From an uncultured Candidatus Altimarinota bacterium (GTDB lineage: Bacteria; Patescibacteriota; Gracilibacteria; BD1-5; JAGOOR01): a stretch of DNA of 37,926 nt. Made by a program: the position numbers and the translations under genes. Below are positions 2,589-27,754 of this stretch, in pieces. Position 1 is the first letter of the stretch; each line of letters begins with the position of its first letter. The stretch lies in the NCBI GenBank assembly GCA_937920005.1, contig CALETF010000136.1:1-37926 (forward strand). Direction: 5' to 3'. The notes below the pieces were generated by a model. It made no database searches, was not told the origin of the DNA, and worked only from the letters and a program-made list of their open reading frames with translations.

Positions 2589-3989
2589 TTATACCCTTTC
2601 CATTCTGACAACTGCCTCAATATGATGAGTATGGGGAAACATATCGACAGGTGTGATATCAGTGACTCTATATTCTCCATTCGGAGCTATGAGCGGTATA
2701 TCCCGTGCGAGTGTCGCAGGATTACAACTGACGTAAATAATTTCACGAGGATTAAAATCACGGAGAATACCTGGCGCGTCTGGATGCATCCCAGCACGTG
2801 GAGGATCGATAACAATAACATCTGGATTCTTTCCTTCTTTTTTCCAATCTTCGAGAAGTTTCTCTACTGGAGCATTCACCACGGTGACATTTTTGATATT
2901 ATTTTTTGCAAGGTTTCGGATATTATCTTCACTTGCTTCTGGGACAATTTCCACCGAGTACACTTCTTTTGCTCGACTTGCGAGCACCATACCAATCGTC
3001 CCTGTGCCCGCATAGAGGTCAAAAACAGTTGGATTTTTTGTCCGAATCATCTCTCCCGTTACACGGTAGAGCTCTTCTGCTCCAAGTGTATTTGTCTGAA
3101 AGAAGCTCTTTGGGCTGATTTCAAACTCCAAATCAAAGAGTTTTTCAGTAATCACGGGTGTACCAGATATGTGTTCGAAATTCCCTTGCACAATATCCGC
3201 CTTTCCAGTGTTGTGAAGCAGGTATGCAGAAGTAATTGTTTTGATACCTGATATAAATGATCGTAGAACCTTTTTAAATTCTTCTCGTTGTGATTCACCG
3301 AGATAGAGTGTATTCACAGATACTATCACCATAGTCTCCCCTGTTTTCTTACTTCGACGAATAACGAGATGTCTCCAGAAACCAATATTTGTCTTCACAT
3401 CATACGTTGGGAGTCTATTTTCTCGAGCAAAGGCATCAAACGCACGAAATATATCATTCACGACATCATCTCCGAGAACACAGTATGTACAGTTGATAAT
3501 ACGATCAAATTGTCCTGATTCATGGAAGCCAAATCGGTATTTATCATCGATTCATTCTCGAGCGGAGATATATTTTCACCAGCTAAATTCGAGCTTGTTT
3601 CTATATCCGTAGACCTCCGGAGAGGCAACAATAGGATGCCATGTAGCATTTGCTACTATCTCTGGTGTATGCACGAATACTTCACGTATTTGTTGTTCTT
3701 TCATCTCGAGTTGTTTCTCATGTGGTATTGGGAGCCAACGACAGCCACCGTAGACCTGAAAATGCTCTGGAAGTTTTGCTTCAAGTGGAGATTTTCTGAC
3801 GACACGGAGGATTTGCCCCTCGATTCTATTAGAGCGGTTCTTGAGAACACGAATGTCCACCACACTCTCTGGTATAGCTCCGCCTGAAATAAGCACCTTC
3901 TTCCCTGTCGCATCGCGACCAAGTCCTATACCTCAGAGAATGAGCTTCTCAACGAGGATATTTTCTAATGTGATTCATTTTTGTCCCAT
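2589..3989 (-). CDS. RNA (uracil-C5)-methyltransferase of the RlmD/RumA/TrmA family with N-terminal TRAM-like domain
   Basis: Track ORFs 2589..3461 and 3576..3896 are in one frame. They are joined through TGA at 3552-3554, 3576-3578, 3933-3935 and 3975-3977. Motifs DPPRAGMHP, YVSCNPATLARD and DMFPHTHHIE. ATG 3989, TAA 2589-2591. Confidence 0.85.
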
Positions 3990-12622: not shown

Positions 12623-13303
12623 TTATTGCATATCACGATGCATCATCATGCTTTCTCCGAGCATGAGTTTCATTTGAGATATTTCTGAGCTCTGTACACG
12701 TATAACCTCTCGAGCAAAATCAGCCACTTCTTTTCGCGCATTGAGTTGAAGTACCTTTTCTGCCATTTGTACTGCACCCATATGATGCATTATCATACCC
12801 TGGAGAAACCAAGTATCCAGAGCTTTTCCTGAGAGCTTTGTACCGTCACCCATCATATTCTGGTAGCTCGGAGTCACAGTCGAATACTTCCAATCTGTTG
12901 ACCATTTTTGCATCATAGCAATTTCTTTTTCTTGTGCAGTGATGATGGCCTGCGCGAGCTTTTTGAGCTCAGGACTCTCCCCTTTTGCTACCACGAGACG
13001 AGCCGTATCAACTGCCTCCTGATGATGAGGTATCATATTGATAACAAATCCTTCTTCTGAGGTCACCATGCCACCATGATCCATCATCATATGATTCATA
13101 CCGCTCATGGATGAATTCTCATTATTAAATTTCTCACACCCTCTCATCTCAGGCATTTGTTTACAATGCTCTCGGAGAGCACTATCTTTATCATATTCTT
13201 TCTCCATCATATCATGAGGCTGAGCATCTCTGAAACCACCTATTTCTACAACAGCTATGAGAGCAACGAGACCAACGAGTATCCAAAGTGGAAGATTTTT
13301 CAT
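12623..13303 (-). CDS. DUF305-family four-helix-bundle protein with N-terminal membrane anchor
   Basis: ATG 13303 (MKNLPLWILVGLVALIAVV) lies inside track ORF 12623..13423. Repeated motifs IPHHQEAVDTARL and MIMHHMGAVQMAEK plus a Met-rich stretch. Ends TAA 12623-12625. Confidence 0.8.
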   Translation of the reverse strand: MKNLPLWILVGLVALIAVVEIGGFRDAQPHDMMEKEYDKDSALREHCKQMPEMRGCEKFNNENSSMSGMNHMMMDHGGMVTSEEGFVINMIPHHQEAVDTARLVVAKGESPELKKLAQAIITAQEKEIAMMQKWSTDWKYSTVTPSYQNMMGDGTKLSGKALDTWFLQGMIMHHMGAVQMAEKVLQLNARKEVADFAREVIRVQSSEISQMKLMLGESMMMHRDMQ

Positions 13304-13328
13304 AAAAAGAAAAATAAAAAATAAAAAA

Positions 13329-13616
13329 TTATTTACGGGTAGACACATCCCATATACGTGCGAATTCTTCGACAAACTTTTCGCCTTTTTTGGTATTTTT
13401 ATCGGTGAGATCAGTCCGACCACAACAGAGGAGATGATTTTTCATGAGATCAACATTGACGCTTCGTAGCAGTCCTATGGTCGCATTTATTTGCTGACCT
13501 ATGTCACCACAATAGCAATCGTCTTCTATCATTTGGTTCACTTTTGTGAGCGTCCCTTGTGCCTTTTTGACAGCAAGGAGGAGTTTTTTTTGGAGTGCAG
13601 GATTTGATTGAATCAT
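13329..13616 (-). CDS. csoR: CsoR/RcnR-family metal-sensing transcriptional repressor
   Basis: MIQSNPALQKKLLLAVKKAQGTLTKVNQMIEDDCYCGDIGQQINA...KNHLLCC carries the C ... H-x3-C ligand pattern. Alternative start ATG 13637. Ends TAA 13329-13331. Confidence 0.8.
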   Translation of the reverse strand: MIQSNPALQKKLLLAVKKAQGTLTKVNQMIEDDCYCGDIGQQINATIGLLRSVNVDLMKNHLLCCGRTDLTDKNTKKGEKFVEEFARIWDVSTRK

Positions 13617-13626
13617 AAAAAAATAA

Positions 13627-14013
13627 TTAATTAACATTTATAGAAAAATTGTACATACCCATACTACACGTTCCTACAATTTTTTCTCCAGATTTTGGAG
13701 CACCAAGATCTATCTCTGTCTCACCGTTAGCAGGGAGCATACCTCGATAGTTTGCAGAACGAACAACGAGAGAAGAGGAGCAGTCGTAAGTATTATTCGT
13801 TTTTACAATAAGCTTCGTTGGTATACCTGATTTGATGACTGATGTTTTGGGACGATACCCTCCACGAGCATTGATTGTGACATATTGTACACCATCACGT
13901 ACAATTATATTCGCCGCTGGACCGTCAACCGATTTTTCACTCTCTGGTAACATAATAAATACACTGATTAGAAGGAGAATGCCGACCAGAATCCATGGAA
14001 GATTTTTTTTCAT
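13627..14013 (-). CDS. secreted/anchored cupredoxin-like domain protein
   Basis: Uninterrupted ORF. N-terminal anchor, then SGIPTKLIVKTNN...GTCSMGMYNFSINV, typical of cupredoxin_1-type proteins found in metal operons. Confidence 0.7.
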   Translation of the reverse strand: MKKNLPWILVGILLLISVFIMLPESEKSVDGPAANIIVRDGVQYVTINARGGYRPKTSVIKSGIPTKLIVKTNNTYDCSSSLVVRSANYRGMLPANGETEIDLGAPKSGEKIVGTCSMGMYNFSINVN

Positions 14014-14018
14014 ATAGC

Positions 14019-15020
14019 CTAGAGATTAATAAGCGGAGGAATAATACCCAGTCATGCCAATCATGCAAGCAATGCAAAAACACCAAGTCACAAAACAACA
14101 ACGCCTGCTGATTTGAAAAAAAGTGTTGCATACTTTGATTTTGAAAAACCCTCTGCACCAAATGAGAGAAGTGCTAGAACTGGGAAAGTACCGAGAGCAA
14201 ATGAGAACATAATGAGTCCTCCTGTGATGTAGGAACCACTAGAGAGTGCGGCGATTTGCATCGATTGAGTAAAACCACATGGGAGGAAAAAAGTACCAAA
14301 TCAGATGAAAATAGGGGTCAAAGTTTTGTGCTCTATTTTTCTGAATATCTGAAAAATTCCCGTCGGGAGTGTCATCTTGCTCTGTCTCAATATACCAACG
14401 AGATCAGCCCCGAGCAAAATCATAACTAGAGCTGCAAAAATACCGAGCAGGCTCGTGAAAAATTGATTTATCTCAACCACATGTCAGAGAGCACCAAGGA
14501 GTCATCAAAGAAATCAAAACCCCAACATCCTGGCTCCATGAAATAGTACAATATTTTTTCTATCACTGATGGAGTCCTGTGATATCTTCGCTGAAAGAGA
14601 TAATACGAGACCTCAAACAACAGCGAGACAACTCGATACTGATGCTATGAGACCTATCAAAAAACTCGTCACTGGTGTCACCTGTCCTCCGATACCGAAA
14701 TTGAGTATTCCTGATTTTTGAAGGAGGAAAAATATACCTAAAAATATCAACCCTATAGGCACGGCCTGCCAGAGGATGCCTTCTTTTTCTAGTGTGTGTT
14801 TTTCGAGCGAGAGAGTGTATCCATGAGAAGAGAGCTTTTCTGCTAACAGTGGAAATATTTTTCACGCATCAGCTTCTTCTGGCATATCAATAGTAACTAT
14901 TTTTTCTTTCATAATCACGTGCGTTTTTGATCCCTGTACGATTTCTTCGACGACATCTTCTACCAGTATTTTACAAGCATTGCAGTGCATGCCCTGGATG
15001 TGGTAAGTATATTTTTTCAT
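14019..15020 (-). CDS. HMA-domain fused to a DsbD_2/TauE-like polytopic membrane protein
   Basis: Absent from the track because of ten in-frame TGA by my count. ATG 15020 gives MKKYTYHIQGMHCNACKILVEDV (GMxCxxC), followed by about six hydrophobic segments including FFLPCGFTQS. Ends TAG 14019-14021. Confidence 0.7.
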
Positions 15021-15021
15021 A

Positions 15022-17295
15022 TTAGAGTTTTTTAGCTTTTATGCGAAGTGAGTTACCGACGACTGAAACACTCGATGCTGCCATTGCTATGCCTGCGAAG
15101 ATAGGATTTAATAACCAACCAAAAAGAGGATAGAGAGCTCCCGCAGCGAGCGGAATTCCTACCATGTTGTAAATAAATGCCCAAAAGAGATTTTGTTTTA
15201 TGCCCATCATCGTTATTTTTGAGAGGTGAATAGCTTTCACTATTTTAGTGATATCACCATGTAGAATGACAATACCTGCACTTTCAATAGCTACATCAGT
15301 GCCAGTTGCCATGGCGATTCCAACATCCGATTGAGCAAGAGCAGGAGCATCATTGACACCATCTCCTACCATTGCAACGATATGATTTTCTGACTGTAGT
15401 TCACGTATCTTCATCAATTTATCTTCCGGAGATACTTCAGCAAAAAAGTCTCCAATACCGACCAGTTTGGCTATATATTCGGCAGTATTTTTTGCATCCC
15501 CTGTCATCATAATGATTTTTACACCGAGCTTTTTGAGCTGGATGATAGATTCTTTTGCTTCTCATTTTAATGCATCTGCCACAGTAATAATAGCGAGTAC
15601 TTGATTTTTACTTGCGAGAATAATAGGCGTTTTACCTTCTTGCGTTTCTTGGTTTATGAGTTCAGTATTATAGTCGAGCTTGAGGTCGTCCATTAAACGA
15701 GTATTTCCGACGAAATATTCTTCTTTTCCTATATTTCCCTGGAGTCATTTTCACTGTATTGAGATAAAGTTTTTAACAGGATGAAGGGATATATCTTCTT
15801 TCTCAGCATACGATACTATCGCTTCAGCAATCGGGTGCTCAGAATATTTTTCAAGAGAAGCAACAATGCCTATCAGCTCCTCATCTGATTTCTTTGAGAG
15901 ATTATGTATTTTTTGAAATTCTGGCTTTCCTTTGGTGAGAGTACCAGTCTTGTCCAAAATAATTGTATCGACATTATGGAGCTTTTGGAGAGTGGCAGCA
16001 TCTTTGATGAGTATTCCTGCGTTTGCTCATTTGCCTACTCATACAATAATCGCAGTGGGCGTAGCAAGTCCAAGAGCGCATGGACATGCGATGACGAGAA
16101 TACTAACAAAAGATACGATACCCAGAGAAAGTGCTGTAGAGAAACCGAGATATGCAGTCCCGACAGTCAGCCAGGCTCAAAATGTCAGCAGGGATAATAT
16201 GAGTACCACAGGTACAAATACGGCTGAGATTTTGTCCGCAAGTGCCTGAATAGGAGCTTTGCTACTCTGAGCTGTTTCTACCATTTTTATGATTCGAGCA
16301 AGCATAGTCTCTGATCCGATTTTGGTTGCCTGAAATCGAAATGCCCCAGTGGTATTGATAGTTCCTGCAATGACATTATCGCCAATATTTTTTTCTGTAG
16401 GAATCGGCTCACCAGTAATCATAGACTCATTGATAAACGAGCTTCCCTCCAAGACAACACCATCAACAGGGATTTTTGCACCAGGTTTTATGATGATGAT
16501 ATCGCCATGTACTACTTCTCCGAGCGGTATTTCTTGTTCTTTATTATTTCGAACAACAAGAGCTGTTTTGGTTTGTAGATTGAGGAGCTTCTTGATGGCA
16601 TCACCTGTTTTACTTTTAGAGCGAGCTTCGAGGTACTTCCCGAGTGTGATAAAACCTATGACGACTATGGTAACATCAAAATAGGTATACTCTGGCAAAA
16701 GAAATGTCTCTCGCACAACAGGAAAAAGAGTAATAATTATGCTATAAATATACGCAGTGAGTGTCCCAATACCAATCAATGTATCCATATTTGCGACACG
16801 GTGTTTGATAAAACGAGATACCCCGAGTAAGAATGGTTTTCCAATCCAAAAAAGCGTCACAGTCGCGAGAATCATGGAAATAATATTAAACATTTCCATT
16901 GGAAGAGGCAGCCGTGGGACAGTAATGAAAATCTGAGCAGCTATATCCCACATCATGAGTCAGAATACGAGAAATGTGATAGGGAGTACGAATTGTACTT
17001 TTTCCCGCTCTACTTCCATGACTTCATGATTTATATCGTGAGCGCTGTGGTCGTGCTCAGTATTCATTATTTTTTCACTATTTTCTGTATCAGAAAAACT
17101 GTATCCGAGAGGCTCAAGTACCTGATTCATTTTTTTAATATCAGTTTTTTGTGGATCAAAATCAAGAAGGGCTGTTTCTGTCCCAGGATTTACCTCAATA
17201 TGCTCTATTCAGGGTATTTTTGAGATTTTTCTCGTGATGATATTAGCGCAGCTTGCACAATGCATACCATGTACTTGAAGAGTTGTATTATTCAT
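15022..17295 (-). CDS. copA: copper-translocating P1B-type ATPase
   Basis: Track ORFs 15022..15510, 15751..15957 and 16177..16956 plus the N-terminus are all in one frame, joined only by TGA codons. Motifs: HMA GMHCASC, TGEP, CPC (IACPCALGLATP), DKTGTLT, MTGD, GDGVNDAP. Ends TAA 15022-15024. Confidence 0.95.
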
Positions 17296-17322
17296 ATAAA
17301 TTAGACAAATAAGAAAAGGCGA

Positions 17323-17886
17323 CTAAAACTGGTACCACTCTTTTCTCCATCCCTTAAAAATCTCTAAAGTTGTCACAAAAAACGTATCAACTGCATCGGC
17401 ATTATTGAGTATTTCCATTCGTGATGATTTTGTCCGTACCTCTCGAGTCATCTTGAGTCCGTCTTCATGATGAGCGATGAGGGCGTTGAGAAAACGTAAC
17501 TCATATGTCTTGTCATAATCTCCGAGCTTAGCCACAATAGGATCTTTCACTTTTTTTGTATCGCCATACCATGATTTCTTCCAATCATAGAGCTCTTGGA
17601 TTGCAGGTGGTTCATTTTTGAGAATATCTGCTGCGAGGTCTTGTATTTCTTTTTTTTGTGTGAGCGGTTGTGCTTGTTCTGCCAGAAGCATAGCACCTCT
17701 ATGATGAGCTATCATCGCATTGATATATCGGAGATCGAGACCACGGTCTGCACGGCCGAGATCCATTCAACTCTTATCATACATTGAGAGAGTATATGCA
17801 GGAGTGAGGGAATATCATATTACTATACCAAGAATAGTACCAACTATAATAAGTGATACACTGAGCGTGACAGACATCTTTGACAT
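17323..17886 (-). CDS. DUF305-family protein with N-terminal membrane anchor (second copy)
   Basis: Track ORF 17323..17766 extends through TGA 17767-17769 and 17815-17817 to ATG 17886. Motifs MIAHHRGAMLLAEQ and LIAHHEDGLKMTRE. Ends TAG 17323-17325. Confidence 0.8.
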
Positions 17887-17920
17887 AGAGAGAAATTAAT
17901 AACTAAATATTTTGAATACA

Positions 17921-17955
17921 AAAAAAGAAAATCCATCCCGACGAATCGGGATGGA
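17921..17955 (-). terminator. strong rho-independent terminator after the Cys-rich peptide gene
   Basis: Perfect 10-bp stem tccatcccga (17932-17941) pairs with tcgggatgga (17946-17955), with a T-rich run on the minus strand. Confidence 0.8.
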
Positions 17956-17964
17956 GAAATAGAA

Positions 17965-18039
17965 CTACTTACCGCATCCTGTGCAAGAACAATTCTCACA
18001 CGCGCATGCACCAGTATTCTGACAAGCACAGTTTCCCAT
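17965..18039 (-). CDS. 24-aa cysteine-rich peptide MGNCACQNTGACACENCSCTGCGK (metallothionein-like candidate)
   Basis: ATG 18037-18039 to TAG 17965-17967, with 8 Cys in 24 residues. It is bracketed by a palindromic operator-like site upstream and a strong terminator downstream, at the head of the copper cluster. Too short for the ORF track. Confidence 0.5.
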   Translation of the reverse strand: MGNCACQNTGACACENCSCTGCGK

Positions 18040-18078
18040 AGTAAAAATAGTGAGGAGATAAAGTACCTTTGGTATATA

Positions 18079-18099
18079 ACCTATACCTGGGGTATAGGT
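18079..18099. promoter_or_regulatory. perfect 9-3-9 inverted repeat ACCTATACC-TGG-GGTATAGGT, candidate CsoR operator
   Basis: Seen directly, 40 to 60 nt upstream of the peptide ATG. Extra GGTATA copies occur at 18071 and 18097. Confidence 0.55.
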
Positions 18100-18141
18100 A
18101 TACTATTCAGAACAAAACAAAAAGCAAATAAAAATATATCG

Positions 18142-18843
18142 CTACATCCTGATGCCGCATTTTTCGACGTTTTTCAGAGCAATCTGCCTGAATAATTCGA
18201 GCTCATGCTCCGAAAAACTCTCTCAAATAAAGTCTGGACTAAGCGTATTTCCCGAACGATAGTTCTGCAGATAATAGTGTCATGCCCCAGAAATAGCCTG
18301 CGTGATATGCTCTATGTCTTCATATGTGTGAATGCCCTTTATCACAGTAGTACGAAATTCATACTCTGGAAGTCGTGTACGAATTATTTCAATGCTCGCC
18401 TTGTAGAGATTGATATCTATTTTTTTTTCGCTCACCACTTCATAGCGGTCGAGAGGATACTTGATATCCATGGCAATGTAATCAACCAGATTTTCGGTCA
18501 ATAATTTCTCGAGTACTTTCGGCTTACTTCCATTCGTATCCAGCTTCACGAGAAAACCTGTCTCCTTTATCTTACGACAGAAATCAGGAAGATCGGCATG
18601 AATAGTTGGCTCCCCCCCACAGATAACGACTCCATCGATAAGTCCTGCTCTCATTTTTAAGAATCTAAAAAAAATATTCTCACTAATAAAATCATGAGAG
18701 ATTTTTTGGATTTTTTCTGGTAAAACAAACTCACTATTATGGCAATATCCGCAGCGGAGATTACATCCTGCTGTGAAAACAATCGTAGCGACCTTTCCAG
18801 GATAATCGAGAAGAGTGCATTTTTTTATGCCAGAGAGCATCAT
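18142..18843 (-). CDS. nrdG: anaerobic ribonucleoside-triphosphate reductase activating protein (radical SAM)
   Basis: Track ORF 18280..18843 has CNLRCGYCHN (CxxxCxxC). It reads through TGA 18280-18282 and 18223-18225 (GHYYLQNY...) to TAG 18142-18144. Confidence 0.9.
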
Positions 18844-18844
18844 A

Positions 18845-19036
18845 TTATTCTCAATATTCTTCTAGAAACTTTGAATTATTCGTCCTATTCTCGTCAAAAT
18901 AAGTACGAGTATAAAATTCCGATTTTTTCCCATTATTAAATTGGCTCACAGGACGATAATATCCCATGACTCGAGTATATATTTCGCACTTGGTTCGAAC
19001 AACCTCTTTTCCCCTATCGTTGATAAATATTTCCAT
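18845..19036 (-). CDS. stand-alone glycyl-radical domain of NrdD (63 aa)
   Basis: MEIFINDRGKEVVRTKCEIYTRVMGYYRPVSQFNNGKKSEFYTRTYF contains the class III RNR glycyl-radical motif RVxGY...NxGK. The track stop TGA 18851-18853 is read through to TAA 18845-18847. The ORF is in the same frame as nrdD. Confidence 0.75.
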
Positions 19037-19066
19037 AGAAAAATAGTAAAAAAATAAAAATGGATT

Positions 19067-21283
19067 CTATCATTCAGTGCCTGTCACAACTTCCTCGAGA
19101 ACTTTCATTTTCTTCTCATCTGCCGTATAGGATTCACGGAATTGTATATCATATTTCTTCCCATGATACCCGAGCTCTTCATCGCATTTTGGACAGTAGT
19201 CATGTTCGCCTTTGATATAACCATGCTTTGGGCAAATCGAGAAAGTAGGTGTTATAGTGATATAGGGAAGCTGGTAGTTTGAGATGACTTTTTTGACGAG
19301 CGCTTTGCATGCTTCTGCATCTGTGATACGTTCACCCATATAGAGATGGAGAACAGTCCCCCCTGTATATTTACATTGGAGCTCGTTCTGGTACTCGAGT
19401 GCTTCGAAGGCATCATCTGTGAAATTGACAGGGAGCTGTGAGGAATTTGTATAGAATGGATTCTCTGAAGTTCCCGATTGTATGATGCTGGGAAGTTGTT
19501 TTTGATCTTCTTTAGCAAAACGGTAGGTAGTTCCTTCCGCTGGAGTCGCCTCGAGATTGTACATACTGCCTGTTTCTTCTTGGTATCCTTTGAGAATTTC
19601 TCGCATGTATTCGAGTGTTTCTATTGCAAATTGCTTTCCCCAGTCTGTCGATATATCCTCCCTTCCCTCAGTAAAGTTTTGAATTGACTCATTCATACCA
19701 TTCAAGCCAATAGTGGAAAAATGATTCCTAAATGAGCGAAGATACCTATATGTATAGGGATAGAGTCACTTCTCGAGCCATTCTGTGAGGACTTTTCTCT
19801 TTATCTCCAGAGAGGTTTTTGCTAAGTCCATGAGATACTTTACCCGCTTACGGAAAGCGATCACATCTCCCCTATTGATGTATCCTATACGAGCCATGTT
19901 GATGGTGACAACACCGATAGATCCTGTCATTTCCGCTGATCAGAAAAGTCCATTACCTCTTTTCAAAAGTTCCCGAAGATCAAGCTGGAGCCGACAGCAC
20001 ATCGACCGTACAGCGCCGGGCTTATAGGCCTCTTCGTTCTCTATAATCATATTATTGCCATTTTCATCTTTCACTCTCTTGTATTGTGAACCAATGAAAT
20101 TCTGAAAATAGGGCAGGCCGTACTTCGCTGTCATTTCAAATATTCGCAATGTATCAGGAGATTCCCAGGGAAAATCTTGCGTGATATTATACGTTGGAAT
20201 CGGAAAGGTGAATGCTCGTCCTTTGCTGTCTCCGGCAGAATACACCTCTATAAGCGCTCGATTGATGATGGCTCTTTCTGTGTCGAGTTCACTAAATTTT
20301 TTAACATATTGTCCTTTGCCATACCCTCCGAGGAAAAGTCCCTTGTCAGCTAAATCTGTAGGACAGGTCCAGTCAAGAGTGATATTGGTGAAAGGAGTCT
20401 GGGTTCACCAGCGAGACGGTACATTGAGACCAAAAACAAAATTCTGCATCTGCTGATAAACATATGAATATGTTTTTTCTGTTATATATTTTTCCTTCTC
20501 TGTCTCGCTGGAAAAAGAAATTCCATACGTTTCTATATCTTTCCTTATTTCCTCGGTATGTTTGTGGACGAAAGGAGACAAGTAGGTATCAAATGAAGAA
20601 AATGCCTGAGCGCCAGCCCATTCATTTTGGAGCGTTCAGAGGAAATTGATCATCTGATTGACCGCTGCCTGCAGATTCCGTGGAGGAGCCGATTCAATAC
20701 GGTTTGGCATACCATTGAATCCCTCTTCAAGAAGCTGACGAAGACTCCAGCCAGCACAATATCCAGAGAACATATCGAGATCATGGATGTGATAATCTGC
20801 ATTTCTGTGTGCATTTCCTATCTCAGATGGATAGATATGAGAGAGCCAATAGTTAGCTGTTATTTTTCCAGAGGTATTGAGAAGAAGACCTCCAAGAGAA
20901 TATCCAGAATTAGCATTTGCATTCACTCTCCAATCCGATTTATTGAGATATTCATCCATCGTCTTGCCGACTTCGACGACAACTGAACGGTCTGCTCGGG
21001 ATGTTGACCGTTTTTCACGGTAGAGAATAAAAGCTTTTGCTACTTGATTATGTCCGTATTTGGTGAGAATTTCCTCTATACTATCTTGGATATACTCCAC
21101 GTCAGGGAGATCTGTTCCTGTTTTTTCCCTTACATGCCTCACAACCTCATCAGTCAATGTAGGGATATGAGAAAAATTTTCTCACCCTACTGCCCCAATA
21201 GCTTTCTGGATAGCTAGCTCTATTTTTGTACGATCAAAAGTAACGATTGCACCATTCCTTTTTCTCACTTTATAAATGACCAT
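19067..21283 (-). CDS. nrdD: anaerobic ribonucleoside-triphosphate reductase large fragment (ATP-cone, barrel and Zn site, no glycyl-radical motif)
   Basis: Track ORFs 19070..19705, 19940..20245 and 20636..21157 are in one frame and joined only by TGA; I translated every gap by hand. ATP-cone MVIYKVRKRNGAIVTFD, then RSMCCRLQLD, TGSIGVVTINMARIG and ICPKHGY...CPKC. Ends TGA then TAG (19067-19069). Confidence 0.9.
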
Positions 21284-21295
21284 AAAAGATAATTA

Positions 21296-21311
21296 ATACT
21301 ATATATTGTGT
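21296..21311. promoter_or_regulatory. NrdR box (proximal)
   Basis: ATACTATATATTGTGT matches 15 of 16 positions of the NrdR-box consensus acaCwAtATaTwGtgt as I recall it. Confidence 0.65.
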
Positions 21312-21327
21312 TATAAAAATAACTGGG

Positions 21328-21343
21328 ACACCATATATAGTTT
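21328..21343. promoter_or_regulatory. NrdR box (distal)
   Basis: ACACCATATATAGTTT matches 14 of 16 positions. Its centre lies 32 bp from the proximal box, the usual tandem spacing. Confidence 0.6.
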
Positions 21344-21359
21344 TTTATCGGTTGCAAGG

Positions 21360-21391
21360 AAATACAAAAGAAGCATATTTCTATGCTTCTT
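21360..21391 (-). terminator. rho-independent terminator after the rhodanese gene
   Basis: 10-bp stem aagaagcata (21368-21377) pairs with tatgcttctt (21382-21391). Confidence 0.65.
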
Positions 21392-21411
21392 ATTTGTTTC
21401 GAAATATGATA

Positions 21412-22011
21412 TTAACAATTAAATTCTCCTTGTGTACAAACACTACTGGGAAATTCTTGTTTTTCGCTGGACAAAGTTTCGGAAACTATATAGTCTTCGA
21501 CTTTACTTGGAGCTTCCCCGTCATGATTCCAGAGATTCCAAGAGTATCTCCACTCATTCCACCCTATTGCGAGATGTTTCACGTAGATACCTTTTTCTGA
21601 AAGCATTTTCCCTATTTTTCGTCCTGTCATACAGGCGCTACTATAACAGTGAACAATAATTTCCTTCCCTGGGTTCTCAGCAATTATCTTTTGAAAAGAC
21701 GTGATGATTCTTTCTTTATCATCATAGGCTGATTTATCAGGAGTTTTGTAAGCAGGTACATTGATGGCACCAATGATATGTTCATGTCTATATTCTTGCT
21801 CGCTTCTAAGGTCGACCAGAATAAAATCATTCTTCTTTTCGGTCATTTTTTTTCGGAGACTGTGGGGGCTGATAATAACGGCATTCTCTGACTCATAAAA
21901 ATCCTGTATAAATTCATTCTGGTTTTTCTCAAAGAGGTTGTCCAAATAAAAAAATCCAGAAACTGATACCACCAAACTCACAATCAAAGACACAATAATA
22001 GAACGCAGCAT
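21412..22011 (-). CDS. membrane-anchored rhodanese-domain sulfurtransferase-like protein
   Basis: ATG 22011 (MLRSIIVSLIVSLVVSV) lies inside track ORF 21412..22056, whose first codon is GTG. Rhodanese core ILVDLRSEQEYRHEHIIGAINVP and active-site loop HCYSSACMTGRK. Ends TAA 21412-21414. Confidence 0.8.
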   Translation of the reverse strand: MLRSIIVSLIVSLVVSVSGFFYLDNLFEKNQNEFIQDFYESENAVIISPHSLRKKMTEKKNDFILVDLRSEQEYRHEHIIGAINVPAYKTPDKSAYDDKERIITSFQKIIAENPGKEIIVHCYSSACMTGRKIGKMLSEKGIYVKHLAIGWNEWRYSWNLWNHDGEAPSKVEDYIVSETLSSEKQEFPSSVCTQGEFNC

Positions 22012-22133
22012 AATAAAAGGGTAAAGAATTAATCTAGACCGAGAAATTGTGTGCACTATTAATTTATCTGTCTATGCGGATGTAATTGTAGGTGAATTCT
22101 TGTTTTTTCAAAGCTAAATTCCTTTCCCTAAAA

Positions 22134-26351: not shown

Positions 26352-27308
26352 CTAGAGCCACTCTACTTCTATTCCCCTCCCCCTCACGAGCTGAGCACGA
26401 AATGGCTCCAGAAATGAAACCATATTTGGAGAACGAATAAGTATCTTTTGTCGGTACTTCCCTGCCCTTTTTTCAAAGAGAAGATGATCGTAGAGGACAG
26501 TTGTGTCTGATGTATGTTTTGCTGCTTCTATCATCGATGAAGCAGTACTCGCTATTCGTTGCTGCACAACTGATTCACTTGAGTCACTAATATAGACAGT
26601 CACCATCTGTGTAAACGGTGGGAGATGAAATTGTTTTCGTTCTGTCACTGTTTTTTGGAAAAAAGATCGGAAATTCCCGCTCGTTACTTCAGTAATAAGA
26701 GGAAGCTTTGGTGAGCGAGTCTGGAGAATAATATCTCTTGAGCGATAAAAAAAATGTCGAATCTGTTGATACATGCTCTCCTCGATGTCATAGTCTGGAA
26801 CGGCCAAATCAGACTCAACGAGGAGAAAAGCTGTGAGCCCGAGATTCTCGATAGGAAGAGAGGATATTTTTTGGGTTCCAATAAATATGTCATATTCAGT
26901 CAGCGTCTTTGGTGTGACCTTATTCAGGTCTTCTATGAGGAGAATTCGTGCCTCGGGAAGCAGTTCTCGCACATGTGTATCAATCGATTGGACTCGAGCG
27001 CCACTCTGAACGAGATGATAGGAATGACATTGGGGGCATTTTTCTGGGAGAGATCACTTTGATTCACAAAAGTGACACAAGAGAGAATTCTCTGGTTTGG
27101 TATGAACTCGCATCAAGAGATCACACGAAGGACACCTGGCAGCCCATCCGCAATCACGGCAGACAAGAGTGCTCATAGCACCTCGACGATTGAGAGAGAG
27201 AAGTATTTTTTCGCCACGAGCAAGTGTCTCCTGCATTCTCCCAAAAAGAACCTCTGAGATAAGAGGTTTGACTGGACGAATCTGATTCATGTCTATGACG
27301 GTGATCAT
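26352..27308 (-). CDS. priA: PriA-like protein, C-terminal half only (Zn-binding Cys cluster, degenerate helicase lobe 2, C-terminal domain)
   Basis: Track ORFs 26352..26972 and 27054..27308 are in frame across TGA 27054-27056. Has LSLNRRGAMSTLVCRDCGWAARCPSCDLLMRVH...LLCHFCES-G-SLPEKCPQC. No Walker A/B region is present and the space upstream is occupied by nrdR. Ends TAG 26352-26354. Confidence 0.7.
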
Positions 27309-27754
27309 TCTTCGAATTCTTCGAGGATAAACTTCACGAAGTCGCTATGACTCTCAAAGTGATTGTAGACTGAAGCAAATCGCAAACAGGCAACTTCATC
27401 AATATCTTTGAGCTTATGAAGGACATCCTTTCCTATTCTCTTCGAAGTAACCCCATTTTTATTCTCTGCCCACTCGATTTCTAGCGTATTAATCATTGAT
27501 TCTATTTTTTCAGGTGGAATATTTCTCTTGTTGCACGCTTTGAGGATACTTGTTTCGAGTTTTGAGCGATTGTATAGTTCTTTTTTACCAGATGTTTTAT
27601 TCACGAAAAAACTCACGAATTCCATACGTTCAAATGTCGTGAAACGGGCTTCGCATTTTTCACATTCACGACGACGACGAATAGAGAGTCAATCTTCTGA
27701 GAGGCGTGAATCTATCACACGAGTTTCGAGATTTTTGCATTTAGGGCAGCGCAT
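27293..27754 (-). CDS. nrdR: transcriptional repressor NrdR (Zn ribbon plus ATP-cone)
   Basis: ATG 27754 gives [42 protein letters not shown] with TGA 27689-27691 at the conserved Gly. The track stop TGA 27305-27307 is read through (GSPS) to TAG 27293-27295, so the gene overlaps the priA-like start by 16 nt. Confidence 0.9.

What the first reader, a model, noticed from the sequence alone, without database searches (positions are those of the whole stretch)
18845..19705. Class III RNR split in two: the glycyl-radical domain is a separate 63-aa ORF, in frame behind a TAG
NrdD runs normally through the Zn site ICPKHGY...CPKC. In other NrdDs, as I recall them, the radical motif follows within about 10 to 20 residues. 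Here the sequence instead continues with about 38 unrelated residues and ends TGA-TAG (19067-19069). After 30 nt of AT-rich sequence a new ATG (19036) opens MEIFINDRGKEVVRTKCEIYTRVMGYYRPVSQFNNGKKSEF, which carries the canonical RVxGY...NxGK glycyl-radical motif. Both pieces are in the same frame, so an insertion of roughly 60 codons carrying a stop and a restart has divided the gene. This could be a two-subunit NrdD with a detachable radical domain, analogous to the YfiD/GrcA spare part for pyruvate formate-lyase. It could also be programmed TAG read-through or a recent inactivation. nrdG follows 1 nt later, which argues that the locus is functional.
Basis: partly seen in the sequence, partly recalled or inferred. 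Interest (0 to 1): 0.68.

Follow-up and report, generated by a model that had tools for sequence, protein, structure and literature searches.

The report
Two-gene anaerobic ribonucleotide reductase
The oxygen-sensitive enzyme that makes DNA building blocks is encoded here in two pieces, with its radical-carrying tip as a separate 63-residue protein, and the same unreported layout occurs in thousands of other bacteria, including well-studied ones.

Summary
Under genetic code 25 (TGA = Gly), nrdD (21283-19067, minus strand) ends at a true TAG just after its zinc site. A separate 63-codon ORF (19036-18845) carries the RVMGY...NxGK glycyl-radical loop, and nrdG starts 1 nt later.

It is not read-through, decay or an assembly error:
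- All 79 scorable related Gracilibacteria/SR1 loci have the same split.
- Their stops are TAA (66) or TAG (13), and the frame offsets are 24/31/24.
- Spacers vary in length.
- dN/dS on the small ORF is 0.04-0.07.

The in-frame arrangement here is coincidence.

The split is not special to this lineage. The same three-gene layout (large subunit, 57-67-aa radical protein, nrdG) occurs in Cupriavidus necator H16 pHG1, C. metallidurans, Ralstonia solanacearum, Bradyrhizobium, Azospira and Sulfuricurvum. It also occurs on hundreds of viral contigs.

RefSeq annotates the two CDSs. I found no paper describing the split, and a 2015 paper from RNR specialists calls split NrdJ the only split RNR in cellular organisms.

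Best reading: an obligate two-polypeptide class III RNR whose radical domain acts in trans.

The parts
21328..21343 (.). NrdR-box-like palindrome 1 upstream of nrdD
   Evidence: One of only two matches in the window to ACACWATATATWGTGT (up to 3 mismatches). The two lie 32 bp apart, directly upstream of the nrdD ATG.
21296..21311 (.). NrdR-box-like palindrome 2 upstream of nrdD
   Evidence: 1 mismatch. The nrdR gene is in the same window.
19067..21283 (-). nrdD large (catalytic) subunit gene: 738 codons plus TAG, with six in-frame TGA = Gly codons
   Evidence: Code-25 translation. Pfam NRDD E = 2.5e-164 over profile positions 2-529 of 562, plus an ATP-cone. NCBIfam NF006126, 1016 bits.
21005..21271 (-). 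ATP-cone (aa 5-93)
   Evidence: PF03477, E = 4.7e-18; coordinates.
19991..20002 (-). Finger-loop motif MCCR (aa 428-431), the double-cysteine type
   Evidence: Read directly from the sequence. The motif classes are described in PMC9669993.
19184..19234 (-). Zinc-ribbon motif CPKH...CPKC (aa 684-700)
   Evidence: Aligns to the CxxC...CPKC motif of P. copri NrdD and the C..H...CPVC motif of T. maritima NrdD. C, P, H and Y are invariant and the CxxC cysteines nearly invariant (at least 90%) in alignment A4.
19070..19183 (-). Lineage-specific C-terminal extension of the large subunit (aa 701-738), beyond the end of the NRDD profile match
   Evidence: Conserved in all 79 scorable relatives; median tail length 35 aa. 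dN/dS 0.08-0.2. AlphaFold2 predicts it as mostly helical, block-mean pLDDT 70-86.
19067..19069 (-). TAG stop codon of the large subunit
   Evidence: Also present in the independent genome L001. The homologous stop is TAA in 66 and TAG in 13 relatives.
19037..19066 (-). 30-nt T-rich spacer, the translation-initiation leader of the small ORF
   Evidence: It has no Shine-Dalgarno motif, but only 1 of 34 genes in the window has one, and the others have similar T-rich leaders. The core TTTATTTTTTTAC(T/C)ATTTTT(C/T)T is conserved in L001-L004. No terminator, promoter excess or Rfam match here.
18845..19036 (-). Gene for the 63-aa glycyl-radical small subunit (includes one TGA = Gly and the TAA stop)
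   Evidence: Pfam NRDD profile positions 532-562, E = 9.2e-8. 453 homologues, of which the best 120 are all 50-108 aa. dN/dS 0.04-0.07.
18959..18973 (-). RVMGY radical motif; the presumed radical Gly25 codon is at 18962-18964
   Evidence: Invariant in alignments A1 and A3. Aligns to RIVGY of T. maritima NrdD.
18142..18843 (-). nrdG activase gene (233 aa; CNLRCGYC radical-SAM cluster motif at 18742-18765)
   Evidence: TIGR02495 NrdG2, E = 6.6e-61. PF04055. Coordinates.
17932..17955 (-). Terminator-like hairpin after nrdG, the likely end of the operon
   Evidence: 10-bp stem with 6 GC pairs, followed by a T tract.
21368..21391 (.). Hairpin upstream of the nrdD promoter region, separating the operon from the neighbouring gene
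27293..27754 (-). nrdR, the likely repressor of the operon
   Evidence: PF22811 Zn_ribbon_NrdR, E = 2.2e-20, plus an ATP-cone.

Best explanation
The window encodes a naturally bipartite class III (anaerobic) ribonucleotide reductase as one operon: NrdR boxes, nrdD-large, the small radical subunit, nrdG and a terminator.

The 738-aa large subunit holds the ATP-cone, the catalytic barrel with the MCCR finger loop and the zinc ribbon. It ends there, with no glycyl-radical loop. The 63-aa protein is translated independently from its own ATG behind a T-rich leader. It supplies in trans the RVMGY...NxGK loop that in one-piece NrdDs inserts into the barrel next to the finger-loop cysteine. NrdG (radical SAM) abstracts the hydrogen from Gly25 of the small protein.

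What is shown:
- the gene structure
- the exact complementarity of the two pieces to the NrdD profile
- deep conservation under purifying selection
- independence from reading frame and from stop-codon identity
- the same layout in many phyla, including organisms where the locus is known to be needed for anaerobic growth

What is inferred:
- The two proteins assemble non-covalently. In this lineage assembly probably uses the conserved 38-aa extension of the large subunit and the N-terminal hairpin of the small one.
- The radical is generated on the small protein.
- A cheap, replaceable radical subunit limits the cost of oxygen cleavage at the glycyl radical and eases the activase's access to the loop.
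For: - **Profile complementarity.** The Pfam NRDD profile is split cleanly, with positions 2-529 on the large ORF and 532-562 on the small ORF. NF006126 gives the same picture.
- **Related loci.** All 79 scorable Gracilibacteria/Absconditabacteria loci have a large ORF ending in TAA or TAG after the zinc ribbon plus extension, then a small ORF at any frame offset (24/31/24). The large-subunit stop lies 28-385 nt (median 84; 69 in the window) upstream of the conserved Arg14 codon of the small ORF. The four closest relatives differ in spacer length, frame and stop codon.
- **Selection.** dN/dS is 0.04-0.07 on the small ORF, 0.08-0.2 on the extension and 0.04 on the core.
- **Assembly error excluded.** An independent genome (98% nt identity) has the same TAG and spacer.
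- **Family of short proteins.** The best 150 clusters at 50% identity are all 51-146 aa. A profile of non-CPR small ORFs returns at least 8000 hits, and the best 120 are 53-83 aa.
- **Same layout in standard-code bacteria.** Each has its own Shine-Dalgarno site and start codon: L081, L083-85, R. solanacearum, Bradyrhizobium, C. metallidurans, C. necator H16 pHG1, Azospira and Sulfuricurvum. Of the best 80 of 438 viral contigs, 73 could be scored. In 69 the radical motif lies less than 120 codons after a stop, and in the other 4 it lies 122-157 codons after one. None is one-piece.
- **Genetic support from C. necator H16.** The H16 large protein computes to 76.19 kDa. That matches the '76.2-kDa NrdD' I recall from Siedow et al. 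1999. PMC2864759 cites the nrdDG locus as essential for denitrifying growth.
- **Initiation and transcription signals.** Lack of a Shine-Dalgarno motif is normal in this genome, 1 of 34 genes. There is no terminator in the spacer, and hairpins flank the operon. Tandem NrdR boxes lie upstream and nrdR is in the window.
- **Structural plausibility.** In P. copri NrdD the glycyl-radical domain behaves as a mobile, largely rigid body that can become fully disordered (PMC11226230).
Against: - There is no direct evidence here (protein, EPR or interaction data) that the two polypeptides assemble or that the radical sits on the small one.
- I could not model the complex.
- The small protein alone folds with low confidence (pLDDT 65.5).
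- The selective advantage (replaceable radical subunit) is inference only.
- Whether this organism has another, one-piece nrdD elsewhere in its genome cannot be checked from a 38-kb window.
Confidence: 0.85

Rival explanations
1. Programmed read-through or recoding of the TAG joins the two in-frame ORFs into a one-piece NrdD carrying a 51-residue insert plus the translated spacer.
For: In this window the ORFs are in frame and the 30-nt spacer has no further stop. The organism already reads TGA as a sense codon.
Against: The homologous stop is TAA in 66 relatives and TAG in 13. Frame offsets are 24/31/24, as expected by chance. Close relatives with at least 92% aa identity have offsets of 2 and 1. 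Standard-code relatives have a Shine-Dalgarno site and start codon of their own, and some have overlapping or out-of-frame ORFs. No RNA structure or Rfam match was found.
Confidence: 0.03
2. Recent inactivation: nrdD is a pseudogene broken by a nonsense mutation or an insertion.
For: A stop codon lies where one-piece NrdDs continue.
Against: The split is conserved down to 53% identity of the small ORF and across phyla. dN/dS is far below 1 on both sides of the break. There are no frameshifts once code 25 is applied. nrdG, the NrdR boxes and nrdR are all intact.
Confidence: 0.02
3. Assembly or sequencing error at 19067-19069.
For: None beyond the general possibility.
Against: An independent genome that differs at 90 positions over 4.5 kb has the identical TAG and spacer. 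So do 78 other species with their own variants.
Confidence: 0.01
4. The small protein is a GrcA/YfiD-type spare part or regulator. It is not the normal radical site, and the large subunit works with some other radical source.
For: It is a stand-alone small protein with a glycyl-radical motif next to an activase, like GrcA (my own knowledge of GrcA).
Against: The large subunit has no radical loop at all, since the profile match ends at position 529 of 562. No second RVxGY motif is present in the operon. The small ORF matches NRDD, not the PFL Gly_radical family. It is co-inherited with the truncated large subunit in every locus examined.
Confidence: 0.05
5. The gene is interrupted by a mobile element (group I intron, intein or homing endonuclease), as in phage nrd genes, and the product is rejoined by splicing.
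For: Phage nrdD genes are often split in this way (PMC3653736).
Against: The spacer is only 30 nt. Rfam finds no intron in 17800-21500. No extra ORF is present. The flanking peptide segments (38 and 15 aa) are far too short for a split intein and are conserved as ordinary protein sequence.
Confidence: 0.01

Closest known systems
One-piece class III RNR NrdD (phage T4, E. coli, T. maritima, P. copri; Pfam PF13597, NCBIfam NF006126/TIGR02487) with activase NrdG
   Same: ATP-cone, catalytic barrel, MCCR finger loop and C/H/C/C zinc ribbon. The RVxGY...NxGK..E radical loop, an adjacent NrdG2-type activase and NrdR boxes are also shared.
   Different: The radical loop is on a separate polypeptide. 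The chain breaks between the zinc ribbon and the loop. Here 38 lineage-specific residues follow the zinc ribbon on the large subunit and 15 precede the profile match on the small one.
nrdD-nrdG locus of Cupriavidus necator (Alcaligenes eutrophus) H16 megaplasmid pHG1 and its proteobacterial relatives
   Same: The same three-gene layout and the same break point. The H16 genes are a 676-aa 'ribonucleoside triphosphate reductase' (WP_011154155.1), a 66-aa 'nrdD' (WP_011154154.1) and nrdG. Large subunits are 53-57% identical to the window's.
   Different: The proteobacterial large subunits have a short, variable tail after CPxCD in place of the conserved 38-aa extension. They use the standard code, have Shine-Dalgarno-led starts, and the H16 spacer is 142 nt. 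As far as I could find, the small ORF's role has not been discussed in print.
GrcA (YfiD), the autonomous glycyl-radical cofactor of pyruvate formate-lyase
   Same: A small stand-alone protein that carries a glycyl-radical loop and is presumably activated by a radical-SAM activase. It can complement a large barrel enzyme in trans (own knowledge).
   Different: GrcA is a spare part for an enzyme that has its own radical domain, and it is homologous to the PFL C-terminus. Here the large subunit has no radical domain, so the small protein is obligatory, and it belongs to the NrdD family.
Split class II RNR NrdJa/NrdJb of Pseudomonas aeruginosa
   Same: An RNR whose C-terminal functional module is encoded by a separate adjacent gene, giving an (alpha-beta)2-type enzyme (PMC4520616). 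Many relatives of the window's small subunit also carry Cys-rich tails or a glutaredoxin domain.
   Different: It is a different RNR class (B12-dependent). NrdJb carries the redox-shuttle cysteines, not the radical site. [quoted passage not shown]
Phage nrdD genes split by group I introns, inteins or unknown processes (T4 and others)
   Same: nrdD appears as more than one ORF (PMC3653736).
   Different: Those breaks are caused by mobile elements or are sporadic, and they fall at other sites. Here there is no intervening element, and the break is fixed and ancient.

Membership tests
Class III RNR catalytic protein NrdD (PF13597 / NF006126) | Significant match to the NrdD profile over the catalytic barrel | tested here: met
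   PF13597 E = 2.5e-164; NF006126 scores 1016 bits against a cut-off of 548. PDB NrdD hits: 8p23, 9d3x, 4coi, 1h78.
Class III RNR catalytic protein NrdD (PF13597 / NF006126) | Finger-loop cysteine motif (MGCR or MCCR) | tested here: met
   SMCCRLQ at aa 427-433. Motif classes are from PMC9669993.
Class III RNR catalytic protein NrdD (PF13597 / NF006126) | C-terminal zinc ribbon | tested here: met
   CPKH...CPKC aligns with the zinc motifs of P. copri and T. maritima NrdD. Metal binding itself was not tested.
Class III RNR catalytic protein NrdD (PF13597 / NF006126) | Glycyl-radical loop RVxGY on the same polypeptide as the barrel | tested here: not met
   The large ORF ends at a TAG after profile position 529. 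The loop (profile 532-562) is on the separate 63-aa ORF.
Class III RNR catalytic protein NrdD (PF13597 / NF006126) | Cognate radical-SAM activase NrdG encoded nearby | tested here: met
   TIGR02495 NrdG2, E = 6.6e-61, starting 1 nt after the small ORF.
Two-gene NrdD (large subunit + small glycyl-radical protein + NrdG), as annotated in RefSeq for Cupriavidus, Ralstonia, Bradyrhizobium, Azospira and Sulfuricurvum | Large subunit ends shortly after CPxCD, followed by a 50-110-aa ORF with R-x2-C-E-[IV]-[WY]-T-R-V-M-G-Y and then nrdG | tested here: met
   Window. Comparators. Joint alignment A3 has C17, E18, R22, G25, Y26, R28, P29, N34, G36, K37, E40 and R44 invariant.
GrcA/YfiD autonomous glycyl-radical cofactor | Homology to the PFL C-terminal Gly_radical domain (PF01228) | tested here: not met
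   Pfam and NCBIfam scans of the small ORF hit only NrdD models.
GrcA/YfiD autonomous glycyl-radical cofactor | Partner enzyme keeps its own radical domain, so the small protein acts as a spare part | tested here: not met
   The large subunit lacks the loop entirely.
GrcA/YfiD autonomous glycyl-radical cofactor | The free small protein is a substrate of the activase | not testable with these tools
   Needs an in-vitro NrdG + SAM + small protein assay with EPR.
Programmed stop-codon read-through / recoding | Conserved stop identity, conserved reading frame and stop-free spacer across relatives | tested here: not met
   TAA 66, TAG 13; offsets 24/31/24; half of the in-frame cases have extra stops.
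Intron-, intein- or homing-endonuclease-split nrd genes | An intervening self-splicing RNA, intein or endonuclease ORF | tested here: not met
   The spacer is 30 nt and there are no Rfam hits at E <= 1 in 17800-21500.
Split RNR of the NrdJa/NrdJb type | B12-dependent class II enzyme whose separate C-terminal piece carries the redox-shuttle cysteines | tested here: not met
   This enzyme is class III. The window's small subunit has no C-terminal cysteines, though 40 of 79 relatives have at least two. The resemblance is architectural only.

The most novel reading that the evidence does not exclude
The detached glycyl-radical protein may be a consumable, exchangeable 'radical cartridge'. In this reading NrdG charges it off the enzyme, and it docks onto the zinc-ribbon end of the large subunit. 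After oxygen cleavage it is discarded, so a 7-kDa peptide is lost rather than an 85-kDa enzyme.

In many relatives the same subunit ends in a CxC tail or a fused glutaredoxin. There it could also deliver the reducing equivalents, uniting radical storage and reductant delivery in one small protein.

This would be the first glycyl-radical enzyme family whose radical site is obligatorily on a separate subunit. It has apparently gone unrecognised even in model denitrifiers such as C. necator H16, R. solanacearum and Paracoccus.
Probability: 0.25. Interest if true: 0.8.

Novelty: new variant of a known kind. Interest (0 to 1): 0.6.

Why it matters
Glycyl-radical enzymes are thought of as single chains whose C-terminal radical domain must swing out of the barrel to meet the activase. 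A natural version in which that domain is a free 7-kDa protein would be useful in several ways:
- It gives a direct experimental handle on activation, on docking and on repair after oxygen damage.
- It contradicts the published view that split NrdJ is the only split RNR in cellular organisms.
- It explains why many genomes seem to have a 'truncated' NrdD next to a tiny 'hypothetical' or 'nrdD' ORF.
- For annotation, large NrdDs lacking RVxGY should not be called pseudogenes, and code-25 genomes need the small ORF called.

For this window in particular, the locus is an ordinary member of that family rather than a one-off.

Tried and rejected
**Attempts that failed or gave little**
- Modelling the complex with AlphaFold2.
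- Modelling the small protein alone gave a low-confidence model (pLDDT 65.5, pTM 0.23). I did not run a fold search on it.
- Modelling the last 210 aa of the large subunit shows only that the extension is predicted as structured.
- Naming the organism behind the abundant gut-type locus L083 through cluster names. No names were on record.
- Looking up contigs for two distant small ORFs returned no DNA.
- The 210-aa large-subunit query returned only code-11 fragments. It did reveal standard-code large subunits that also end after CPxCD.

**Hypothesis considered and set aside**
- I considered whether the invariant Cys17 of the small subunit completes the zinc site in trans. T. maritima NrdD also has a C/H/C/C pattern and no Cys at that position, and the one-piece Actinomyces oris protein keeps the Cys. 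A bridging zinc is therefore not required, and the role of Cys17 stays open.

**Literature**
Seven were aimed at finding a description of split NrdD in cellular organisms, and none found one.
- Siedow et al. 1999 and Wei et al. 2014 are not held. What I say about the 1999 paper rests on memory plus the computed 76.19 kDa.

**Phylogeny**
- A rough NJ tree places the one-piece A. oris protein inside the split group. With a single one-piece sequence this says nothing firm about how many times splitting or fusion happened.
Full report
**1. Observation**

The region was read on the minus strand and translated with table 25. nrdD starts at 21283 and runs 738 codons to a TAG at 19069-19067. Six in-frame TGA codons are present. 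Several fall where homologues have glycine, for example in INFLGTLQNEWAGAQ, PSRWGTQTPF and GLFGSAE, which are identical or nearly identical in the standard-code homologue L083. The genome therefore uses code 25, as in the Gracilibacteria/SR1 lineage, and the 'TGA-TAG' ending is Gly-stop.

After the zinc motif CPKH...CPKC (aa 684-700) come 38 further residues, then the TAG, then a 30-nt T-rich spacer. An ATG at 19036 opens a 63-codon ORF, MEIFINDRGKEVVRTKCEIYTRVMGYYRPVSQFNNGKKSEFYTRTYFDENRTNNSKFLEEYGE, which ends with TAA at 18847-18845. The nrdG ATG follows at 18843. The two ORFs are in frame.

**2. The two ORFs are two halves of one NrdD**

The Pfam NRDD profile has 562 positions. The large ORF matches positions 2-529 (E = 2.5e-164) and also carries an N-terminal ATP-cone. 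Residues 16-47 of the small ORF match positions 532-562 (E = 9.2e-8, above the gathering score). NCBIfam gives the same picture with NF006126, and identifies the downstream gene as NrdG2 (E = 6.6e-61).

Solved NrdD structures align with the large ORF up to CPKC. The T. maritima C-terminus (...CPVCGKAKVDEYMRIVGYLVPVSAFN...) aligns with the small ORF. The chain is therefore broken between the zinc ribbon and the radical loop. Lineage-specific sequence flanks the break: 38 aa on the large side and about 15 aa on the small side.

**3. The split is not an accident of this genome**

A search with the small ORF found 453 homologues, and the best 120 are all 50-108 aa. A scan of one genome per GTDB species found 471 loci, of which 80 were fetched. 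A tblastn under code 25 and a junction analysis gave these results for the 79 scorable loci:
- The large ORF always ends after the zinc ribbon, in TAA (66 loci) or TAG (13 loci).
- The small ORF lies at frame offset 0, 1 or 2 in 24, 31 and 24 loci.
- The distance from the large-subunit stop to the conserved Arg14 codon of the small ORF ranges from 28 to 385 nt (median 84; 69 in the window).

Even the four closest relatives (at least 92% aa identity) differ. Their spacers are 30, 26, 31 and 24 nt, their stops are TAG, TAA, TAA and TAG, and their offsets are 0, 2, 1 and 0. A T-rich leader is conserved among them.

L001 is an independent genome, 98.0% identical in DNA with 90 mismatches and no gaps over 4.5 kb. 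It has the same TAG and the same spacer.

Nei-Gojobori dN/dS against L002-L004 is 0.04-0.07 for the small ORF, 0.08-0.2 for the 36-codon tail and 0.04 for the core.

These results exclude read-through, recent decay and assembly error. The shared frame in the window is the one-in-three chance outcome.

**4. Expression signals**

Only 1 of 34 long ORFs in the window has a Shine-Dalgarno-like motif. The rest have T-rich leaders like the one before the small ORF. No terminator or promoter excess lies in the spacer, and hairpins flank the operon at 21391-21368 and 17955-17932. Rfam finds nothing in 17800-21500.

The only two matches in the window to the NrdR-box consensus lie 32 bp apart, directly upstream of nrdD. 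nrdR itself is at 27293-27754. The operon therefore looks regulated and functional.

**5. The split is far wider than this lineage**

An exhaustive HMMER search of 1.84 billion cluster representatives gave 2110 hits, and the best 150 are all 51-146 aa.

Large-subunit fragments from standard-code organisms also end just after CPxCD. Their contigs show a large NrdD, a small ORF and nrdG:
- L081 (61% GC) has a TGA stop followed by AAGGA and a GTG start.
- L083-85 have a 675-aa NrdD, a 57-aa ORF 2 nt after the TAA and then nrdG. The small protein is listed in 403 blocks of the collection, on contigs up to 2 Mb.

The best 120 are all 53-83 aa.

A tblastn against plasmids and chromids found the small ORF in 162 records, including:
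- Ralstonia (133 records)
- Bradyrhizobium
- Cupriavidus
- Paracoccus
- Allochromatium
- Cereibacter
- Thiothrix

The annotated records I opened show the same three genes in a row:
- R. solanacearum: 685 aa plus a 58-aa 'hypothetical protein'.
- B. ottawaense: 678 aa plus a 63-aa 'nrdD'.
- C. metallidurans CH34: NrdD and NrdG are Rmet_5137 and Rmet_5139, which leaves Rmet_5138 between them (PMC2864759).
- C. necator H16 pHG1: 676 aa plus a 66-aa 'nrdD', separated by a 142-nt spacer with AAGGAG before the ATG.
- Azospira.
- Sulfuricurvum.

IMG/VR holds 438 viral contigs with the small ORF. Of the best 80, 73 could be scored. In 69 the radical motif lies less than 120 codons after a stop, and in the other 4 it lies 122-157 codons after one. 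None is one-piece.

Actinomyces oris has a one-piece member of the same family...CPVHGY...CDKCAELHPEAEPVECEVWTRVMGYFRPV....

The window's large subunit is 53-57% identical to the proteobacterial and Campylobacterota split proteins and 49% identical to the A. oris protein.

**6. What is specific to the window's lineage**

- All code-25 relatives, and L074 (labelled Peregrinibacteria in its record; no in-frame TGA in its nrdD), share a conserved 22-44-aa extension after CPxCD (E-[LI]-G-[YF]-x-G-x2-[FY]-[DN]-x3-R-x2-[YH]-T...). Proteobacteria have short, variable tails instead.
- AlphaFold2 on the last 210 aa predicts the extension as mostly helical, with block-mean pLDDT of 70-86.
- The small protein alone gives a low-confidence model (pLDDT 65.5) with an N-terminal hairpin.
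- I infer that these two segments are the docking elements.
- Cys17 and Glu18 of the small subunit are invariant in all split forms and are kept in the one-piece A. oris protein. Their role is unknown.

**7. Mechanism**

The best-supported reading is an obligate two-polypeptide class III RNR:
- The large subunit binds substrate and effectors and carries the thiyl-forming finger loop (MCCR).
- The small subunit carries the glycine that NrdG converts to the stable radical, and it inserts next to the finger loop.

The gene structure and its conservation are shown. Assembly, the radical site and any advantage are inferred.

The inference is plausible on two grounds:
- In P. copri NrdD the glycyl-radical domain behaves as a mobile, largely rigid body that can become completely disordered (PMC11226230).
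- The nrdDG locus of C. necator H16 has this split layout, and PMC2864759 cites it as essential for denitrifying growth.

The H16 large protein computes to 76.19 kDa. That matches the '76.2-kDa NrdD' of Siedow et al. 1999 as I remember the abstract. The paper is not held.

A replaceable 7-kDa radical subunit would cheapen recovery after oxygen cleavage. Several carriers that I know to be facultative denitrifiers would fit this idea. This part is speculation.

**8. Comparison with what is known**

- **One-piece NrdD.** The window's enzyme meets every defining feature of NrdD tested except having the radical loop in cis.
- **GrcA/YfiD.** The resemblance is limited to being a stand-alone radical-loop protein. 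The small ORF is not homologous to the PFL C-terminus, and the large subunit has no loop of its own.
- **NrdJa/NrdJb.** The window's enzyme parallels the split class II RNR of P. aeruginosa in architecture only. [quoted passage not shown]
- **Phage nrdD.** Those splits are caused by introns or inteins (PMC3653736).
- **Literature.** None of the literature searches aimed at it found a description of a split NrdD in bacteria. Large phylogenetic surveys discuss the glycyl-radical domain only as a C-terminal domain (PMC9669993 and PMC9531940).
- **Annotation.** RefSeq already annotates both CDSs and often names the small one 'nrdD', so the sequences are not new to databases.

**9. Verdict**

The window is one ordinary member of a very large, multi-phylum family of two-gene NrdDs. 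The family appears unrecognised in the literature I could search. Novelty lies in the architecture as a class, and in the CPR-specific extension, rather than in this locus.

Noticed in passing
window 21296-21311 and 21328-21343; nrdR at 27293-27754 (-): Tandem NrdR-box-like palindromes 32 bp apart lie directly upstream of nrdD. They are the only two matches to the consensus in the window. The nrdR repressor gene is 6 kb away in the same window.
   Followed up: partly
L017, L022, L066, L077, L079 (Gly25 codon of the small ORF): In 5 of 80 related loci the radical glycine itself is encoded by TGA. This is a neat internal proof that TGA is read as Gly in these genomes.
   Followed up: yes
L019-L021, L025-L027, L032-L040, L044-L052, L059-L065, L069-L080 (C-termini of small ORFs); L074 small ORF; proteins P0131, P0215: 40 of 79 small subunits, mostly SR1/Absconditabacteria, end in CxC-type cysteine tails (for example FVGCGCAA, SCPCGM). 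Three small subunits are fused to a glutaredoxin/thioredoxin-like domain (PF00462, E = 6.8e-8). This suggests that in those lineages the small subunit also shuttles reducing equivalents. The window's own small subunit has no such cysteines.
   Followed up: partly
L007, L013 (large-subunit tails); L087 (R. solanacearum); L083: Some large-subunit C-terminal tails also carry CxC motifs (HACECCAPVE, DRDCACAPP, ACDCKEEK). These are reminiscent of the redox-active tails of class I and II RNRs.
   Followed up: no
L019, L020, L026, L038, L063, L070 (between the small ORF and nrdG): In SR1/Absconditabacteria 0.5-2.9 kb of other genes separates the small ORF from nrdG. One is a UDG-superfamily protein (PF03167). 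From their sequences, others look like NUDIX, nucleoside deoxyribosyltransferase, Maf, 3-methyladenine glycosylase and HD-domain proteins. The stretch looks like a small island of nucleotide-metabolism and repair genes.
   Followed up: partly
whole window: The genome uses code 25: there are six in-frame TGA codons in nrdD alone. It almost completely lacks Shine-Dalgarno motifs (1 of 34 long ORFs) and has T-rich leaders instead. Only tRNA-Gly(UCC), tRNA-Met and tRNA-Ser are present, and there is no tRNA-Gly(UCA) in this window.
   Followed up: partly
L089 (C. necator H16 pHG1), positions 2805-3147: The experimentally studied nrdD of strain H16 is the large subunit only (computed 76.19 kDa). A 66-aa radical-loop ORF with a strong AAGGAG site follows after a 142-nt spacer and overlaps the annotated nrdG start. 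An upstream start in the nrdG frame would overlap this ORF. That might explain the larger NrdG (30.9 kDa, as I recall) reported in 1999.
   Followed up: partly
IMG/VR loci L093-L172: 438 viral contigs encode the small radical-loop ORF family. Nearly all of the best 80 have it as a short stand-alone ORF, so phages or prophages carry the split form too.
   Followed up: partly
window 12623-17886 (-): Downstream of the operon lies a metal-handling cluster. It holds two DUF305-like proteins (Pfam-confirmed for 17323-17886 only) and a DsbD_2/HMA membrane protein. It also has a 757-aa protein that, from its sequence, looks like a heavy-metal P-type ATPase. A rhodanese-domain protein lies upstream at 21412-22056 (-).
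   Followed up: no
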